Source of the DNA: a virus
Virus record (IMG/VR): IMGVR_UViG_3300034072_000578
Coordinates: 32,001-96,000 of that record
Direction: 5' to 3' (one strand)
Length of the DNA stretch: 64,000 nucleotides
The position numbers and the translations under genes were made by a program. The notes under the pieces were generated by a model. That model searched no databases, was not told the origin of the DNA, and saw nothing but the letters and a program-made list of their open reading frames with translations. Of the stretch, positions 21,498 to 28,000 are shown piece after piece. Within the stretch, counting starts at the first letter, position 1; every line of letters starts with the position of its first letter.

Positions 21498-21574
21498 GCG
21501 CGTTTAGCTCAGTTGGTAGAGCAGTCGGCCCCTAATCCGACAGGCCACGGGTTCGATCCCTGTAACGCGCACCA
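21498..21574 (+). tRNA. atypical tRNA with 8-nt anticodon loop CCCCTAAT (Arg-CCT or CTA)
   Basis: Otherwise canonical cloverleaf with CCA. Confidence 0.75.
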
Positions 21575-24401: not shown

Positions 24402-24848
24402 ATGGGTTTCCTCGATAGCCTCAAAGGCATCGCCTCCAACTTCATGGCTGATGCTGAAAAGGCTCTTAGCCGCATGTCCGACAAGGCGACTTTCATTCGC
24501 ACCGTCCAAGCTTCCTATCTGGTCGCTGCCGCTGATGGCAACGTATCGGATGAAGAGAAGGTGGTTCTTGGCCGCGTCATCGCCAAGAAACTTCCTTCCT
24601 TCAAGTCGTCGGAGGTTGCTAAGGCAATCGATGACTGCGCCGAAGAAATGTCCCTCTCTGCCGTAGCTGGTAAGGTTGCTCTTATGGAGAGCATCGAAAA
24701 GGCTGCTGGCACTGATGGTGCAAAGGTCATCATGCTTGGCATGTTGGCCGTGGCCAATGCCGACAATGAGTTCCAACCCTCCGAACAGCAGGTGGCGCGG
24801 GCCATTTGCGTCAAGCTCGGTCTTCGCCCGCAGGAGTATGCGCTATAA
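24402..24848 (+). CDS. terB: TerB family protein
   Basis: 'VAAADGNVSDEEK' and 'VANADNEFQPSEQQVARAICVKLGL'. Confidence 0.85.
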   Translation: MGFLDSLKGIASNFMADAEKALSRMSDKATFIRTVQASYLVAAADGNVSDEEKVVLGRVIAKKLPSFKSSEVAKAIDDCAEEMSLSAVAGKVALMESIEKAAGTDGAKVIMLGMLAVANADNEFQPSEQQVARAICVKLGLRPQEYAL

Positions 24849-25447
24849 TGGAATGGTTACTTGCTAACCTGATGACGTTCGGTAGTATCGTTCTGCTGGA
24901 CATCGTTCTCTCCGGTGATAACGCCGTTATTATCGGGGCAAAAGCCGCCAGCCTTCCCGCCGAACAGCGTAAGAAGGTCATCAAATACGGCATGTTCATG
25001 GCCGCAGGTTTCCGCATCGTTCTGCTGTTCCTCGCGACCTACCTGCTACAGATTCCCGGTATCCGACTCGCCGGTGGTCTTGCCCTGCTCTATGTGGCGT
25101 GGGGTATGTTCAAGGATATCAGGGACAATGGTATCGTTGATGGTAGCACGGAGAACGTAACGGCTGCTGCGAACTATCGTTCCGCACTCTTCGCCGTTGC
25201 TCTTGCCGATCTTTCGATGTCCATCGATAACATTCTTGCCGTTGCTGGTGCTGCCGGGGATCATTACTTCGCGCTCATCTTCGGTATCGTGTTGTCGATC
25301 TTCATCATGATCTTTGCTGCCAATGCGGTAGCGAGACTCATTGAGAAGTATCGTTGGCTGGCTTGGTTCGGCTTGCTGCTGGTCCTCTATATCGCGGGTC
25401 ATCTGATCTATCAGGACGTTCCAGTCATCGTGTCTTGGACTTCCTAA
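24848..25447 (+). CDS. terC: TerC family membrane protein (YjbE-like)
   Basis: 'DIVLSGDNAVII', 'ADLSMSIDNILAVAG', multiple TM helices. Confidence 0.9.
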   Translation: MEWLLANLMTFGSIVLLDIVLSGDNAVIIGAKAASLPAEQRKKVIKYGMFMAAGFRIVLLFLATYLLQIPGIRLAGGLALLYVAWGMFKDIRDNGIVDGSTENVTAAANYRSALFAVALADLSMSIDNILAVAGAAGDHYFALIFGIVLSIFIMIFAANAVARLIEKYRWLAWFGLLLVLYIAGHLIYQDVPVIVSWTS

Positions 25448-25457
25448 TAAGCTAATA

Positions 25458-25488
25458 GAAACGGGGCTTAACGGCCCCGTTTTTATTT
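25458..25488 (+). terminator. intrinsic terminator after terC
   Basis: AAACGGGGC-ttaacg-GCCCCGTTT followed by TTATTT. Confidence 0.75.
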
Positions 25489-25565
25489 GACCTTAATCAA
25501 ATAATACTAGATTAAATATAAGATCAGGGCCAAGAAAAAAAGTTTGGGCTTGGTGCATTTTTCTC

Positions 25566-25594
25566 TTGCACCGAATCGATTCGTCGCCTAGATA
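25566..25594 (+). promoter_or_regulatory. promoter of large ncRNA with palindromic double GANTC
   Basis: TTGCAC-CGAATCGATTCG...-TAGATA with a 17-nt spacer. Confidence 0.65.
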
Positions 25595-25639
25595 GAGATC
25601 ACCGGCAAGGAAACGAACCGGTCGCTGCTTGAAGCGGAT

Positions 25640-26415
25640 AAGCTAGAGTAATCTGGTGAAAGGTTAGGAGCCAAACCAAGCCGCCTAGTAATAGGTCAAC
25701 TTAAGCAACATGGAACTGACCGAAAGGTTCCTCTATACAAGTAGGGGATAGATTGAAGGATAAGGGTTTTAGGTCCGAAAGGATAACTAGCAGAGCTAAT
25801 CGGTGAGCTAGTGAAGTCGCAAACACCTGCACCAAGCAAAACTTATTCGAAGTCGATAGTGAACCATAAGGGTAATAGTTCGACCATTAGCGTGGAAGAG
25901 CATTAGCCAGTTACCAAAGGTGGAGACACTTTACGTAACCGTTGAGTAGCCCGCAAGGCGAAAGACATGAGGCGTGTGGCATGTTGTTCCCCAAAAGGGA
26001 ATGATACCATTGGACAAGCACGTCTTAACTGGAAACAACTTAGCATAACGGTAATGCGATGGACTCTTAATCCATTGATTGTTGGTTCAAATCCAGCAGT
26101 TGATTCATCAACGCAAAGCCTTGTCCAGCTATAAGTGAAAGGCACCTAAGCCCTACCTAGAGTGGGGGCATGAAGTCTCGCAAGGATGGATTGTTTGTAG
26201 TGGAAGAACTCATTGCTCTTTAGCGGGAGCTTAATGGAGGTAAAACTTCAATGGGATTAAGATACTATGAGTAGCTTGTAGTGATATCGCAAATGCCAGC
26301 GATTAATAAAATGGCGGTGTTGGTAGTTACTATGATACCTTGACCGGGTTATAGTGGAAAAGGCCCTAAACAATAAGGGGTTTAAGACTGCCCTTAGTAA
26401 GTGTATTCTCAGCTT
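25640..26415 (+). ncRNA. GOLLD-like large structured RNA (~780 nt)
   Basis: ORF-free with its own promoter; 5' AAGCTAGAGTA pairs with 3' TATTCTCAGCTT; many GNRA-capped hairpins; next to tRNAs. Size, context and terminal sequences resemble GOLLD as I recall it (no covariance search run). Confidence 0.7.
26034..26105 (+). tRNA. tRNA-Lys(CTT) embedded in GOLLD-like RNA
   Basis: D arm, ATGGA-CTCTTAA-TCCAT anticodon arm, GTTGG-TTCAAAT-CCAGC T arm; no encoded CCA. Confidence 0.75.
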
Positions 26416-26428
26416 GCTAATTACATAT

Positions 26429-26477
26429 GGGGATAATCGCGTAAAGTCATTGGTCTGACCGCTCGGTTTCCCCACCA
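26429..26477 (+). ncRNA. mini acceptor-stem RNA ending in ACCA
   Basis: GGGGA.../...TCCCC-ACCA, 49 nt, no T arm. Confidence 0.4.
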
Positions 26478-26478
26478 T

Positions 26479-26556
26479 GGCCTATGTAGCTCAGTCCGGT
26501 TAGAGCGTCCGATAAATAAGGAAGGTCGTTGGTTCGAATCCAACCCTAAGGCCCCA
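26479..26556 (+). ncRNA. tRNA-like RNA with collapsed anticodon arm
   Basis: Canonical D and T arms and CCA; anticodon arm is only TCC-GATAAATAA-GGA. Confidence 0.6.
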
Positions 26557-26557
26557 T

Positions 26558-26654
26558 AGCGCGGTAGTTTGAGTGTGCTTCTGGACAGAAGTATGCAGAC
26601 AAAACAGCTTTCGGAGGATTGAAGACGGGGGTTTGAATCCCTCTCGCGCTTCCA
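26558..26654 (+). ncRNA. tRNA-like RNA with hairpin inserted in the D region
   Basis: AGCGCG/CGCGCT-TCCA acceptor, GGGG-TTTGAAT-CCCT T arm, long hairpin TGTGCTTCTG-ga-CAGAAGTATG. Confidence 0.55.
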
Positions 26655-26656
26655 AC

Positions 26657-26766
26657 GGGACGGTAATTCAGCGGTAGAAGACGAAACCTTGTCTAAGCCC
26701 TTTGAGGGTGATGGACCCCAAGACAAGGCCAGATAGTCGGAGGTTCGATCCCTCCCCGTCCCGCCA
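26657..26766 (+). ncRNA. tRNA-like RNA with branched domain replacing the anticodon arm
   Basis: GGGACGG/CCGTCCC-GCCA acceptor, D-like arm, perfect T arm; CCTTGTCT/AGACAAGG helix encloses a further hairpin. Confidence 0.65.
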
Positions 26767-26982
26767 CTTAATAACATTGAAACATGATGGTCTGCACATT
26801 GTCATGTTTCAACCTTGTTAAGTTTCACATTATCGGTGGGCTGAAATCCAGCGATAGAGGCAAGCCCCTAAGCAAGGCTCCTACGTGAACCTAATCCATA
26901 GTGTTAGGAGCGATGATTTACGCTAGCTATGATTAGGGGAAGCTAGAAAGGTTATAGACCTGATAAACTTCCCCTTCTTAGT

Positions 26983-27059
26983 GGACCCTTAGCTCATTTG
27001 GTTAGAGCGACGGACTTTTAATCTGTAGGTGCTGGGTTCGAATCCCAGAGGGTCCACCA
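26983..27059 (+). tRNA. tRNA-Lys(TTT)
   Basis: Canonical cloverleaf, loop CTTTTAA, CCA. Confidence 0.93.
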
Positions 27060-27182
27060 CTTACTTAGTAGTGATAGAATACGGGTTGGTTCTTCAATTT
27101 GCTTTTGCCCAAAAGCTGTCGATCCGTATTCTTTCTTTATTAAGTGGGGTGTTATGTATTTTCTTACGTTATGACCTACCAA

Positions 27183-27266
27183 GCCCTCTTGGCGTAATTG
27201 GTAGGCGCAGCAGACTTAAAATCTGCCGGTTGATCCGTCTCGGTTCGAGTCCGAGAGAGGGCACCA
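27183..27266 (+). tRNA. tRNA-Leu(TAA)
   Basis: Class II cloverleaf, loop CTTAAAA, CCA. Confidence 0.92.
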
Positions 27267-27425
27267 AGTTTCAGAGCCAACTTCGCGGGCGTCTCCATCC
27301 GCGAGAAAACACCTAGACATACCCTCTTGCATGTGGGTAGTTAATGGACGGTGGGGTAAAAGCCCTCAATATGCAGCGTTATATGACTGGCCTTCGGTGT
27401 CGCAACCTAGCCTTTCGACTAACCT

Positions 27426-27447
27426 AGGCCCTTCGGGGCCTTTTTTT
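27426..27447 (+). terminator. intrinsic terminator closing the RNA operon
   Basis: AGGCCC-TTCG-GGGCCT followed by a T tract. Confidence 0.85.
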
Positions 27448-27460
27448 GGAGTCTTACTAA

Positions 27461-28000
27461 ATGGGTCTTTTGGGTAAGAAGAAGCAAGAGCTTCCCGTCA
27501 ATGCCGGTGTCGAACTTGGCGACTACGTTAAGGACGTAGTTACCGGTTTTGAGGGCATTGCTTATGCTCGCGACTATCACCTTCACGGTTGCGACCGTAT
27601 CGAGGTATCTCCGACCAGCTTGGATGATAACGGCAACCCCAAGGATGCTTTCGTTTTCGATATCCTGCGCCTGACGGTGATCGAAAAGGGGCGTATGGCT
27701 TGTATCGAGCCTAACGCCCACTTTAGCGCGTTCACCATGGGCGCGAAGGTCAAGGACACCATCACCGGCTTTGAAGGCATTATCGGCACCCGCACCGAAA
27801 TCGTCACCGGCCTTACCCTCATCGGGATCATGCCGACTGTCCTTTCCAAGGAAGGCGCTCTCAAGGACGCTAAGGTCTTCCCGGCTGGCCGGGTGGAACT
27901 GATCGCGGAACAGCCTGTCCCGGTCGCTCCTGAGGCTCCAAAGGGCAAACCGGGCGGTCCTACCGAACGTCGCAGCGCTGCCAAGGCTCCGCCCCGCTAA
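27461..28000 (+). CDS. hypothetical protein with two tandem SH3-like repeats
   Basis: 'LGDYVKDVVTGFEGI' and 'MGAKVKDTITGFEGI' repeats. Confidence 0.7.
   Translation: MGLLGKKKQELPVNAGVELGDYVKDVVTGFEGIAYARDYHLHGCDRIEVSPTSLDDNGNPKDAFVFDILRLTVIEKGRMACIEPNAHFSAFTMGAKVKDTITGFEGIIGTRTEIVTGLTLIGIMPTVLSKEGALKDAKVFPAGRVELIAEQPVPVAPEAPKGKPGGPTERRSAAKAPPR

What the first reader, a model, noticed from the sequence alone, without database searches (positions are those of the whole stretch)
25566..26415. GOLLD-like giant RNA carrying a tRNA-Lys(CUU) inside one of its loops
Seen: ~780 ORF-free nt behind a dedicated promoter, with pairing ends (AAGCTAGAGTA/TATTCTCAGCTT) and many GNRA hairpins. A full cloverleaf with anticodon CTT (26034-26105) is enclosed by helix TGGACAAG (26011)/CTTGTCCA (~26119). 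It lacks the encoded CCA that the free-standing tRNAs in the window carry, and it is the only Lys-CTT decoder. Known: GOLLD RNAs occur in phages next to tRNA clusters and have no established function. Inference: the tRNA is either excised, coupling tRNA supply to maturation of the large RNA, or displayed as a cargo or decoy domain.
Basis: partly seen in the sequence, partly recalled or inferred. Interest (0 to 1): 0.85.

Follow-up and report, generated by a model that had tools for sequence, protein, structure and literature searches.

The report
GOLLD phage RNA with built-in tRNA
This gene-free stretch of a 108-kb uncultivated phage encodes a full-length member of the known GOLLD family of giant cage-forming RNAs, with a lysine-tRNA-shaped piece in its internal linker; this arrangement is already published, and the piece looks more like a tethered tRNA body than a working tRNA gene.

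Summary
The main observation holds. Rfam's GOLLD model matches window 25967-26415 at 183.6 bits (cut-off 150). ARAGORN and Rfam both call a tRNA-Lys(CUU) at 26034-26105, inside the GOLLD variable linker. The helix TGGACAAG/CTTGTCCA that closes the linker is real and covaries strongly. The proposed pairing of the 5' and 3' ends is not supported: it does no better than shuffled controls, and the 5' arm belongs to a conserved local GNRA hairpin. A tRNA in the GOLLD linker is already published (Kretsch 2025; Behra 2019, citing Weinberg 2009), and this scan has noted it in at least 44 other genomes. It is therefore a new member of a known kind.

My survey of 109 distinct IMG/VR GOLLDs found 16 with a linker tRNA at this site, all in one clade. 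With two from cultured Caulobacter phages (phiCbK, BL57), that gives 18 distinct linker tRNAs. All 18 keep perfect D, anticodon and T stems. Their acceptor stems are AU-rich and mismatched, and 16 of 18 lack CCA, whereas 188 of 195 free tRNAs beside the IMG/VR ones encode it. The insert therefore most likely stays tethered inside the cage. Excision as a working tRNA is not excluded, since AAG is this phage's main Lys codon. In phiCbK the annotated 'tRNA-Gly' is such a linker tRNA, which gives a laboratory system for testing this.

The parts
25461..25488 (+). Terminator-like hairpin (ACGGGGC/GCCCCGT) plus T-run that ends the upstream TerC-like membrane-protein gene (24806-25447)
   Evidence: Read directly from the sequence. 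The upstream ORF matches phrog_7180, membrane protein. The terminator scan did not flag this hairpin.
25566..25594 (+). Putative promoter TTGCAC-N17-TAGATA with a CGAATCGATTCG palindrome in the spacer. Function is unverified.
   Evidence: Read directly from the sequence. It does not pass the sigma-70 scan. The motif class occurs 10 times against 7.5 +/- 3.2 expected. Several relatives have near-consensus sigma-70 promoters at the equivalent place, by eye.
25601..26415 (+). Full-length GOLLD RNA, about 815 nt. The 5' end is inferred from the putative promoter; the 3' end is the end of the Rfam model.
25636..25966 (+). GOLLD 5' domain, the variable half of the family
   Evidence: nhmmer finds homology to the 5' regions of other tRNA-bearing GOLLDs: L150 E 5e-15, L206 2e-7, L003 5e-5, L174 1e-4. 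RNAalifold on 6 sequences predicts 64 pairs, 44 of them with compensatory changes.
25642..25657 (+). Conserved GNRA-capped hairpin (CUAGA-GUAA-UCUGG).
25967..26415 (+). GOLLD conserved 3' domain
   Evidence: Rfam RF02032, 183.6 bits (gathering score 150), model positions 1-416.
26011..26018 (+). 5' strand (UGGACAAG) of the linker-closing pseudoknot helix. It lies in the internal loop of the first hairpin of the 3' domain.
   Evidence: Covariation; also visible by eye in 27 other GOLLDs.
26029..26119 (+). Variable linker (Rfam model positions about 63-150). It is disordered and faces the cage interior in the solved env-38 structure.
   Evidence: Alignment; PMC12286853.
26034..26105 (+). tRNA-Lys(CUU)-shaped insert, anticodon at 26066-26068. 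The acceptor stem is AACAACU/AGUUGAU with an A2.A71 mismatch and only 2 G-C pairs. The discriminator is U and no CCA follows.
26120..26127 (+). 3' strand (CUUGUCCA) of the linker-closing helix
26403..26411 (+). Nearly invariant terminal loop, here GUAUUCUCA (the family usually has GUAAUCUCA).
   Evidence: In env-38 the corresponding loop L27 pairs with P23 and J24/26 (PMC12286853).
26429..27266 (+). RNA genes on the same strand downstream, with no terminator in between: tRNA-like elements (26480-26552, 26657-26763 and neighbours), tRNA-Lys(UUU) at 26983-27059 and tRNA-Leu(UAA) at 27183-27266. They are probably co-transcribed with the GOLLD RNA.
27426..27451 (+). First terminator-like site on the + strand after the GOLLD gene (leaving out a scan call inside the linker tRNA, 26057-26077)

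Best explanation
Window 25601-26415 (+) is a full-length GOLLD RNA gene of a complete 108-kb tailed phage. It is probably the first gene of an RNA-only operon: GOLLD, then tRNA-like elements, then tRNA-Lys(UUU) and tRNA-Leu(UAA), then a terminator.

By homology to the solved GOLLD structures, the RNA should self-assemble into a multimeric cage. The variable linker of the 3' domain would face the cage interior, closed at its base by a covarying pseudoknot helix (26011-18 / 26120-27). That linker carries a tRNA-Lys(CUU)-shaped module.

The module belongs to a lineage of linker tRNAs confined to one GOLLD clade. Members keep a perfect tRNA body (D, anticodon and T arms) but have a weak, mismatched, AU-rich acceptor stem. 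They lack an encoded CCA, and most have a discriminator base that is unusual for their isotype.

My inference is that the module mostly stays covalently tethered, so one tRNA body per protomer is held inside the cage, and it is not released as a working tRNA.

Shown here: family membership, the site of the insert, the closing helix, and the class-wide properties of the insert. Inferred: cage assembly, tethering, and any role in display or storage.
For: - Identity: GOLLD 183.6 bits against a cut-off of 150. The 5' half is homologous to other GOLLD 5' domains, with compensatory pairs. The genome is phage: portal, terminase, helicase and RNR genes, direct terminal repeats and 100% estimated completeness.
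- Closing helix: 97.6% paired, 5 of 8 pairs change on both sides, 0 of 500 shuffles (both helices counted together).
[quoted passage not shown] In M. aubagnense GOLLD, a Northern blot detected no free product of the embedded pseudo-tRNA (PMC6582537).
- Frequency: 16 of 109 distinct IMG/VR GOLLD 3' domains have a tRNA at the same site. All lie in one clade with SH-aLRT support 98.
- Stem quality in the 18 distinct linker tRNAs against 395 distinct free tRNAs from the same loci: acceptor mismatches 1.56 against 0.18 on average; acceptor G-C fraction 0.18 against 0.60; D, anticodon and T stems have 0 mismatches in all 18.
- CCA: 2 of 18 linker tRNAs encode it, against 188 of 195 free tRNAs in the tRNA-bearing loci and 25 of 25 in this window.
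- Discriminator: the window's insert has U73, while free Lys tRNAs have A in 13 of 14 cases, including both Lys(UUU) genes of this phage.
- Redundancy: in 6 of 10 loci with tRNA arrays, the linker anticodon is duplicated by a free tRNA. One linker 'Ser(GCU)' has no long variable arm and is 85% identical to a linker Arg(UCU).
- Local fold: the minimum-free-energy fold pairs the 3' acceptor strand with the trailer (GUUGA/UCAAC) and not with the 5' acceptor strand.
Against: - The window's insert is one of the best-formed of its class: 61.3 bits, a canonical anticodon loop CU-CUU-AA, and only one acceptor mismatch.
- CUU is unique in the genome, and AAG is the phage's main Lys codon: 1215 AAG against 673 AAA. 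A decoding role would therefore make sense.
- Hosts generally have a CCA-adding enzyme (control genomes), and an enzyme such as RNase Z could make the 3' end, so the lack of CCA does not forbid maturation.
- The 18 linker tRNAs are related to one another, so the statistics overstate their independence.
- No expression or processing data could be obtained.
Confidence: 0.55

Rival explanations
1. The insert is a working tRNA gene. RNase P and a 3' endonuclease cut it out of the linker, the host CCA-adding enzyme completes it, and it decodes AAG. The two GOLLD halves stay together through the closing helix and the first hairpin of the 3' domain, so tRNA supply is coupled to GOLLD expression or to opening of the cage.
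For: - The tRNA score is 61.3 bits, with a canonical U33 and A37 anticodon loop.
- It is the only CUU anticodon in the genome.
- AAG makes up 64% of Lys codons, while the other A/G-ending codon pairs mostly favour A.
- The linker is dispensable for the solved fold, where it is disordered (PMC12286853). The closing helix and the hairpin could hold a nicked RNA together.
- Two linker tRNAs elsewhere (L089, L283) do encode CCA.
Against: - There is no CCA, although 25 of 25 free tRNAs in the same phage encode it.
- It has an A1-U72 pair, an A2.A71 mismatch, only 2 G-C pairs in the acceptor stem, and U73 where Lys tRNAs have A73.
- The acceptor defect is class-wide, while the tRNA body is perfectly kept.
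- Linker anticodons are often redundant with free tRNAs.
- The phage encodes no CCA-adding enzyme.
- No free product of the embedded tRNA was detected in the one published Northern blot, in a Mycobacterium GOLLD (PMC6582537).
Confidence: 0.3
2. The insert is a passenger. A tRNA gene landed by recombination in a permissive, unconstrained linker inside a tRNA array, and it is decaying or neutral, with no role for GOLLD or for translation.
For: - The linker varies in length and sequence across the family.
- GOLLD genes sit within tRNA arrays.
- Two members of the tRNA-bearing clade (L149, L282) have lost the tRNA.
- Closely related GOLLDs carry different tRNAs, for example L089 Asn and L283 Glu.
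Against: - Neutral decay should also damage the D, anticodon and T stems. All 18 linker tRNAs have 0 mismatches there, against 0.10-0.23 on average in free tRNAs.
- The insert always sits at the same site with conserved leader and trailer sequences.
- It is confined to one clade and not scattered across the family.
Confidence: 0.1

Closest known systems
GOLLD RNA (Rfam RF02032). Solved examples: env-38 14-mer cage (Kretsch et al. 2025, PMC12286853) and Streptococcus agalactiae 12-mer (reviewed in PMC12990946).
   Same: A conserved 3' domain with the invariant terminal loop, a variable 5' domain of about 350-400 nt, a variable internal linker, a phage origin, and a position within a tRNA array.
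   Different: The sequence is divergent: at most 53% identity to any of the 108 other sampled 3' domains. The terminal loop is the GUAUUCUCA variant. The linker holds a tRNA, whereas in env-38 it is a short disordered loop. Multimer assembly has not been tested for this member.
Mycobacterial GOLLD with an embedded (pseudo-)tRNA (Behra et al. 2019, PMC6582537; Morgado et al. 2020 as cited in PMC12990946: tRNA-Phe in J13/15)
   Same: A tRNA-shaped module in the same linker. The published view is that it is a pseudo-tRNA or is held in 'inhibited storage'. No free product of the embedded tRNA was seen on a Northern blot.
   Different: The isotype differs (Lys CUU). The host is a free phage and not a chromosomal tRNA island. 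The window's copy has a fully canonical anticodon loop and matches the phage's preferred Lys codon.
Unannotated GOLLD of the cultured Caulobacter phages phiCbK and BL57 (found here)
   Same: The first hairpin of the 3' domain is 77-93% identical over 42-89 nt. The linker tRNA sits at the same offset. The top of the acceptor stem is non-canonical (the Rfam tRNA match covers only model positions 4-67), and there is no CCA.
   Different: The anticodon is UCC (annotated tRNA-Gly), with a non-U base at position 33. GC content is 59% against 43%. The terminal loop is the GUAGUCUCA variant. These are jumbo phages of 205-229 kb.
ROOL RNA (a second family of phage-borne cage-forming RNAs)
   Same: A giant phage non-coding RNA near tRNA islands, forming a cage with an interior disordered linker (PMC12286853).
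   Different: The sequence and fold are unrelated. No ROOL hit was found here.

Membership tests
GOLLD RNA (RF02032) | A match to the covariance model of the conserved 3' domain above the curated gathering score | tested here: met
   183.6 bits against 150, E 4.7e-50, model positions 1-416, not truncated.
GOLLD RNA (RF02032) | The nearly invariant 3'-terminal loop GUA(A/U)UCUCA | tested here: met
   GUAUUCUCA at 26403-26411. The motif is invariant in 28 verified members. The U variant occurs in 61 IMG/VR stretches.
GOLLD RNA (RF02032) | A variable linker in the 3' domain, closed by a covarying helix | tested here: met
   Helix 26011-18 / 26120-27: 97.6% of cells paired, 5 of 8 pairs change on both sides, 0 of 500 shuffles (both helices counted together).
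GOLLD RNA (RF02032) | A structured 5' domain of about 350-420 nt, less conserved than the 3' domain | tested here: met
   nhmmer homology to five other GOLLD 5' regions, best E 5e-15. Of 64 consensus pairs, 44 show compensatory changes. There are 7 GNRA hairpins against 2.0 expected.
GOLLD RNA (RF02032) | Phage or prophage origin and adjacency to tRNA genes | tested here: met
   The genome is a phage with direct terminal repeats, portal and terminase genes, and 26 tRNAs flank the gene.
GOLLD RNA (RF02032) | Self-assembly into a homo-oligomeric cage | not testable with these tools
   Known only from cryo-EM of env-38 and the S. agalactiae member (PMC12286853, PMC12990946).
Functional elongator tRNA-Lys | A cloverleaf with a canonical 7-nt anticodon loop (U33, purine 37) | tested here: met
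   ARAGORN and Rfam tRNA (61.3 bits). The loop is C-U-CUU-A-A. The D, anticodon and T stems have no mismatch.
Functional elongator tRNA-Lys | A stable 7-bp acceptor stem | tested here: not met
   A2.A71 mismatch and only 2 G-C pairs. Of 395 free tRNAs, 329 have no mismatch and 370 have 3 or more G-C pairs. The minimum-free-energy fold prefers an alternative trailer hairpin.
Functional elongator tRNA-Lys | Discriminator A73, typical of bacterial and phage tRNA-Lys | tested here: not met
   U73 here. It is A in 13 of 14 free Lys tRNAs of the sample and in both Lys(UUU) genes of this phage.
Functional elongator tRNA-Lys | A 3' CCA, encoded as in the rest of this phage's tRNAs or added after transcription | tested here: inconclusive
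   CCA is not encoded, against 25 of 25 free tRNAs. The phage has no CCA-adding enzyme. A host enzyme could add it.
Functional elongator tRNA-Lys | Release by RNase P and 3' processing, and aminoacylation | not testable with these tools

The most novel reading that the evidence does not exclude
The linker tRNAs of one GOLLD clade, including this one and the 'tRNA-Gly' of Caulobacter phage phiCbK, are not tRNA genes. They are a dedicated lineage of tethered tRNA bodies. Selection keeps the elbow and a canonical anticodon arm, deliberately weakens the acceptor end, and lets the anticodon switch quickly, often to copy a free tRNA of the same phage. On this reading the GOLLD cage presents 10-14 anticodon arms as bait, sensor or store for anticodon-directed enzymes or for the translation machinery.
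Probability: 0.35. Interest if true: 0.65.

Novelty: new member of a known kind. Interest (0 to 1): 0.33.

Why it matters
GOLLD is one of the largest bacterial and phage non-coding RNAs. Its cage structure was solved in 2025, but its function is still unknown. This locus by itself adds only another, divergent member with a linker tRNA.

The comparative result is more useful. Linker tRNAs are confined to one clade, have perfect bodies but defective acceptor ends, mostly lack CCA (16 of 18), and are often redundant with free tRNAs. This narrows the hypotheses towards a tethered tRNA module.

The finding that phiCbK carries such a GOLLD, apparently unreported in the searchable literature, gives a genetically tractable phage-host pair (Caulobacter crescentus) in which to test what the cage and its tRNA do.

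Tried and rejected
- Papers not held: Weinberg 2009 and Morgado 2020 are not in the library. Their content is cited only through PMC6582537, PMC12286853 and PMC12990946.
- Similarity search: blastn against cultured phages gave only short matches of 42-89 nt, all to Caulobacter phages.
- Promoter: the sigma-70 scan found no + strand promoter in 25000-27600, and the TTG(A/C)NN-17/18-TAGA(C/T) class is not enriched by count.
- Linker-helix script: my heuristic finder for the linker helix mis-assigned many sequences. I used it only where it agreed with inspection by eye. The MAFFT alignment A1 misaligns the small GNRA hairpin (helix 1 is 61% paired), so I judged that hairpin from A2 and by eye.
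- Close relatives: a search through the neighbouring TerC-like protein found one related contig (66% identity) with no GOLLD in the 1.5 kb available. Conservation of the Lys(CUU) insert in near relatives could therefore not be tested.
- Recent duplication: linker tRNAs are not recent copies of free tRNAs of the same phage, with 51-66% identity, which is at background level.
- CCA-adding enzyme: none is encoded by the phage.
The 16-of-109 figure is a sample and not a census.

Full report
OBSERVATION

The window is bases 32001-96000 of a 108,412-bp IMG/VR virus record with direct terminal repeats and an estimated completeness of 100%. It encodes a portal protein, a large terminase subunit, a helicase and a ribonucleotide reductase. 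It holds all 26 tRNA genes that ARAGORN finds in the genome.

The flagged stretch follows a TerC-like membrane-protein gene (24806-25447) and a hairpin with a T-run at 25461-25488. It contains no ORF longer than 80 aa.

Rfam's GOLLD model (RF02032) matches 25967-26415 on the + strand over its whole length at 183.6 bits, against a gathering score of 150, with E 4.7e-50. ARAGORN calls tRNA-Lys(ctt) at 26034-26106, and the Rfam tRNA model gives 61.3 bits at 26034-26105. In the GOLLD alignment the tRNA falls in the unpaired, variable stretch between model positions 63 and about 150.

The helix TGGACAAG (26011-26018) / CTTGTCCA (26120-26127) is real. Its 5' strand lies in the internal loop of the first hairpin of the 3' domain, and its 3' strand follows the linker, so it is a pseudoknot that closes the linker. 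In a 16-sequence alignment it is 97.6% paired, 5 of 8 pairs change on both sides, and no shuffle out of 500 reaches the values observed for the whole tested structure, which also included the small GNRA hairpin. The same complementarity, with different sequences, is visible by eye in all 27 other verified GOLLDs.

GNRA-capped hairpins are enriched: 7 against 2.0 +/- 1.4 in shuffles.

The tRNA has no encoded CCA, whereas all 25 free tRNAs of the window read N-CCA. CTT is a unique anticodon in the genome.

WHICH DETAILS DO NOT HOLD

The proposed pairing of 25640-25650 with 26404-26415 is no better than chance across relatives: 55.8% paired against 54.9% in shuffles, and 129 of 500 shuffles do as well. 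The 5' arm is in fact the 5' strand and GUAA loop of a local hairpin (25642-25657) that is conserved with compensatory changes. The 3' arm is the nearly invariant terminal loop. In the solved env-38 structure that loop pairs with elements of the 3' domain, and the 5' and 3' halves form separate domains (PMC12286853).

The 'dedicated promoter' (TTGCAC-17-TAGATA, 25566-25594) does not pass a sigma-70 scan. Its motif class is not enriched by count: 10 sites against 7.5 +/- 3.2. It remains plausible for two reasons. Five of those sites share a GC(C/T)TAGA motif (four also carry CGAATC). Several relatives have near-consensus promoters at the equivalent position (by eye).

There is no terminator between the GOLLD 3' end and 27426. 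The RNA is therefore probably co-transcribed with the downstream tRNA-like elements, tRNA-Lys(UUU) and tRNA-Leu(UAA). Its 3' end is then probably made by processing at the next tRNA-like element, which starts 14 nt downstream. In many other GOLLDs a tRNA on the same strand starts 4-17 nt after the 3' end.

THE 5' HALF

Positions 25640-25966 are homologous to the 5' regions of other GOLLDs: L150 at E 5e-15, then L206, L003, L174 and L228. A six-sequence RNAalifold consensus has 64 pairs, 44 of them with compensatory changes. The gene is therefore a full-length GOLLD of about 815 nt.

WHAT IS ALREADY KNOWN

- Kretsch et al. 2025 (PMC12286853) solved GOLLD env-38 as a 14-mer cage. They showed that the variable linker lies in the cage interior. 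[quoted passage not shown]
- A 2026 review (PMC12990946) describes a tRNA-Phe in the J13/15 linker of a Mycolicibacterium GOLLD and proposes 'inhibited storage'.
- Behra et al. 2019 (PMC6582537) found a pseudo-tRNA inside the M. aubagnense GOLLD and detected no expression of it by Northern blot. They cite the 2009 discovery paper for a predicted tRNA inside GOLLD.
- Earlier notes of this scan list GOLLD with a linker tRNA in at least 44 other genomes.

The finding is therefore a new member of a known kind.

SURVEY

Three pattern scans of IMG/VR for the conserved 3' tail, filtered with an nhmmer profile, gave 109 distinct 3' domains with enough flanking sequence. Rfam confirmed 27 of the first 77 records and all 12 tRNA-bearing loci that I tested, at 159-226 bits.

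Sixteen of the 109 carry an ARAGORN tRNA at the same place, 309-421 nt before the 3' end, on the same strand. A seventeenth (L021) has a tRNA-like element that ARAGORN misses. The anticodons are varied:
- Asn GUU in four, and Asn AUU in one
- Arg UCU in three
- Lys UUU in two, and Lys CUU in one (this window)
- one each of Pro UGG, Trp CCA, Glu UUC, an ochre-reading UUA, and a 'Ser' GCU that has no long variable arm

On a tree of the post-linker 285 nt, all 17 fall in one clade of 39 rows (SH-aLRT 98), and 15 of them in a sub-clade of 17. The window is a long branch within the larger clade, and its exact place is unsure. Within the clade the anticodon changes between close relatives. This happens in two ways:
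- by point change in an otherwise similar tRNA body, for example Arg UCU against 'Ser' GCU at 85% identity, and the UUA tRNA against Asn GUU at 79%
- by replacement of the whole tRNA, as between L089 and L283

PROPERTIES OF THE LINKER tRNAs

I compared 18 distinct linker tRNAs (the 16 above plus phiCbK and BL57) with 395 distinct free tRNAs from the same loci.

| Feature | Linker tRNAs (18) | Free tRNAs (395) |
|---|---|---|
| Acceptor-stem mismatches, mean | 1.56 | 0.18 |
| Acceptor-stem G-C fraction | 0.18 | 0.60 |
| D, anticodon and T stem mismatches | 0 in all 18 | 0.10-0.23 on average |
| Encoded CCA | 2 of 18 | 253 of 395 |

In the tRNA-bearing IMG/VR loci specifically, 188 of 195 free tRNAs encode CCA. 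None of the 12 linker tRNAs checked begins with a G1-C72 pair, and most of their discriminators are unusual for the isotype. Their Rfam tRNA scores are 45-69 bits, within the range of free tRNAs. In 6 of 10 loci with sizeable arrays, a free tRNA has the same anticodon as the linker tRNA, and in two of those loci it is the only duplicated anticodon. The linker tRNAs are not recent copies of those free tRNAs.

The window's insert fits the class. It has an A1-U72 pair, an A2.A71 mismatch, 2 G-C pairs in the acceptor stem, U73 where both of the phage's own Lys(UUU) genes have A73, and no CCA. In a minimum-free-energy fold, its 3' acceptor strand pairs with the trailer and not with the 5' acceptor strand.

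One caveat applies to all of this: the linker tRNAs share ancestry, so the p-values overstate their independence.

INTERPRETATION

Neutral decay would damage all four stems, but only the acceptor end is defective. The body of the tRNA is therefore under selection, while the features needed for RNase P recognition, CCA-dependent maturation and aminoacylation are not.

Three other points go the same way: the interior position of the linker, the negative Northern blot in Mycobacterium, and the redundancy with free tRNAs. Taken together, these favour a tRNA body that stays tethered to each protomer inside the cage. I put this at about 0.55.

The main rival, at about 0.3, is excision as a working tRNA-Lys(CUU). 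It has specific support in this phage. The insert is well formed, CUU is unique in the genome, and AAG is the preferred Lys codon (1215 against 673 AAA), although other A/G-ending codon pairs mostly favour A. The phage has no CCA-adding enzyme of its own, but hosts usually have one. A pure passenger or pseudogene is unlikely, at about 0.1.

A USABLE LEAD

The only cultured-phage matches to the region are 18 phiCbK-like Caulobacter phage records. In phiCbK (JX100813.1) and BL57 (PQ287320.1), Rfam finds an unannotated GOLLD at 165 and 170 bits. The gene annotated 'tRNA-Gly (GGA)' lies in its linker at the same offset as in the window. Its Rfam tRNA match covers only model positions 4-67, so the top of the acceptor stem is non-canonical. 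Position 33 is not U, and no CCA follows. No paper in the searchable library mentions phiCbK together with GOLLD. This phage and its host make a tractable system for deciding between tethering and excision.

VERDICT

The locus is a divergent new member of the GOLLD family with the known linker-tRNA arrangement.

Noticed in passing
L286 1529-2015 (JX100813.1, phiCbK); L287 1532-2018 (PQ287320.1, BL57): The cultured Caulobacter phages phiCbK and BL57 carry an unannotated GOLLD RNA (165 and 170 bits against a cut-off of 150). The gene annotated as tRNA-Gly(GGA) is the linker tRNA of that GOLLD. I found no paper in the held library that links phiCbK and GOLLD.
   Followed up: partly
window 26429-26766: Directly after the GOLLD 3' end lie CCA-ended tRNA-like elements with abnormal anticodon arms. 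Rfam tRNA gives 33.4 bits at 26480-26552. At 26657-26763 it gives 36.9 bits, with 53 nt in place of the 17-nt anticodon arm. They are the mirror image of the linker tRNA: good acceptor end and CCA, but no normal anticodon arm.
   Followed up: partly
L289 4801-4915: A related phage contig (its TerC-like protein is 66% identical) has, downstream of that gene, a tRNA with a 52-nt insert in the anticodon arm (45 bits). It resembles the window's element at 26657-26763. There is no GOLLD in the 1.5 kb available. ARAGORN calls no tRNA there.
   Followed up: no
window 21498-21574: ARAGORN reports a tRNA with a four-base anticodon CCUA (8-nt loop). Rfam tRNA gives 57.3 bits, and it ends in A-CCA. It may be an amber or quadruplet decoder.
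   Followed up: no
L144 (provirus record G070), linker of its GOLLD: The linker holds what looks by eye like a tRNA remnant without a T arm: an acceptor-like stem AGATAA/TTATCT, a hairpin, and an anticodon-like arm ATGGA-CTGTAAA-TCCAT. The stem of that arm is identical to the anticodon stem of the window's tRNA.
   Followed up: no
many loci, e.g. L005, L008, L022, L062, L111: A tRNA on the same strand very often starts 4-17 nt after the GOLLD 3' end, and in one sub-family tRNA-Pro and tRNA-Met end just before the 5' end. This suggests that the ends of GOLLD are made by tRNA-processing enzymes.
   Followed up: no
L286 702-1020 and L287 636-954, minus strand: A permuted (two-piece) tmRNA (RF04321, 71 bits) lies about 500 nt upstream of the GOLLD gene in phiCbK and BL57, on the opposite strand.
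   Followed up: no
whole genome G000: Lys codon usage is skewed towards AAG (1215 against 673 AAA), while Glu, Leu and Arg prefer the A-ending codon. The genome is 45.7% G+C. The phage carries two tRNA-Lys(UUU) genes plus the linker Lys(CUU).
   Followed up: partly
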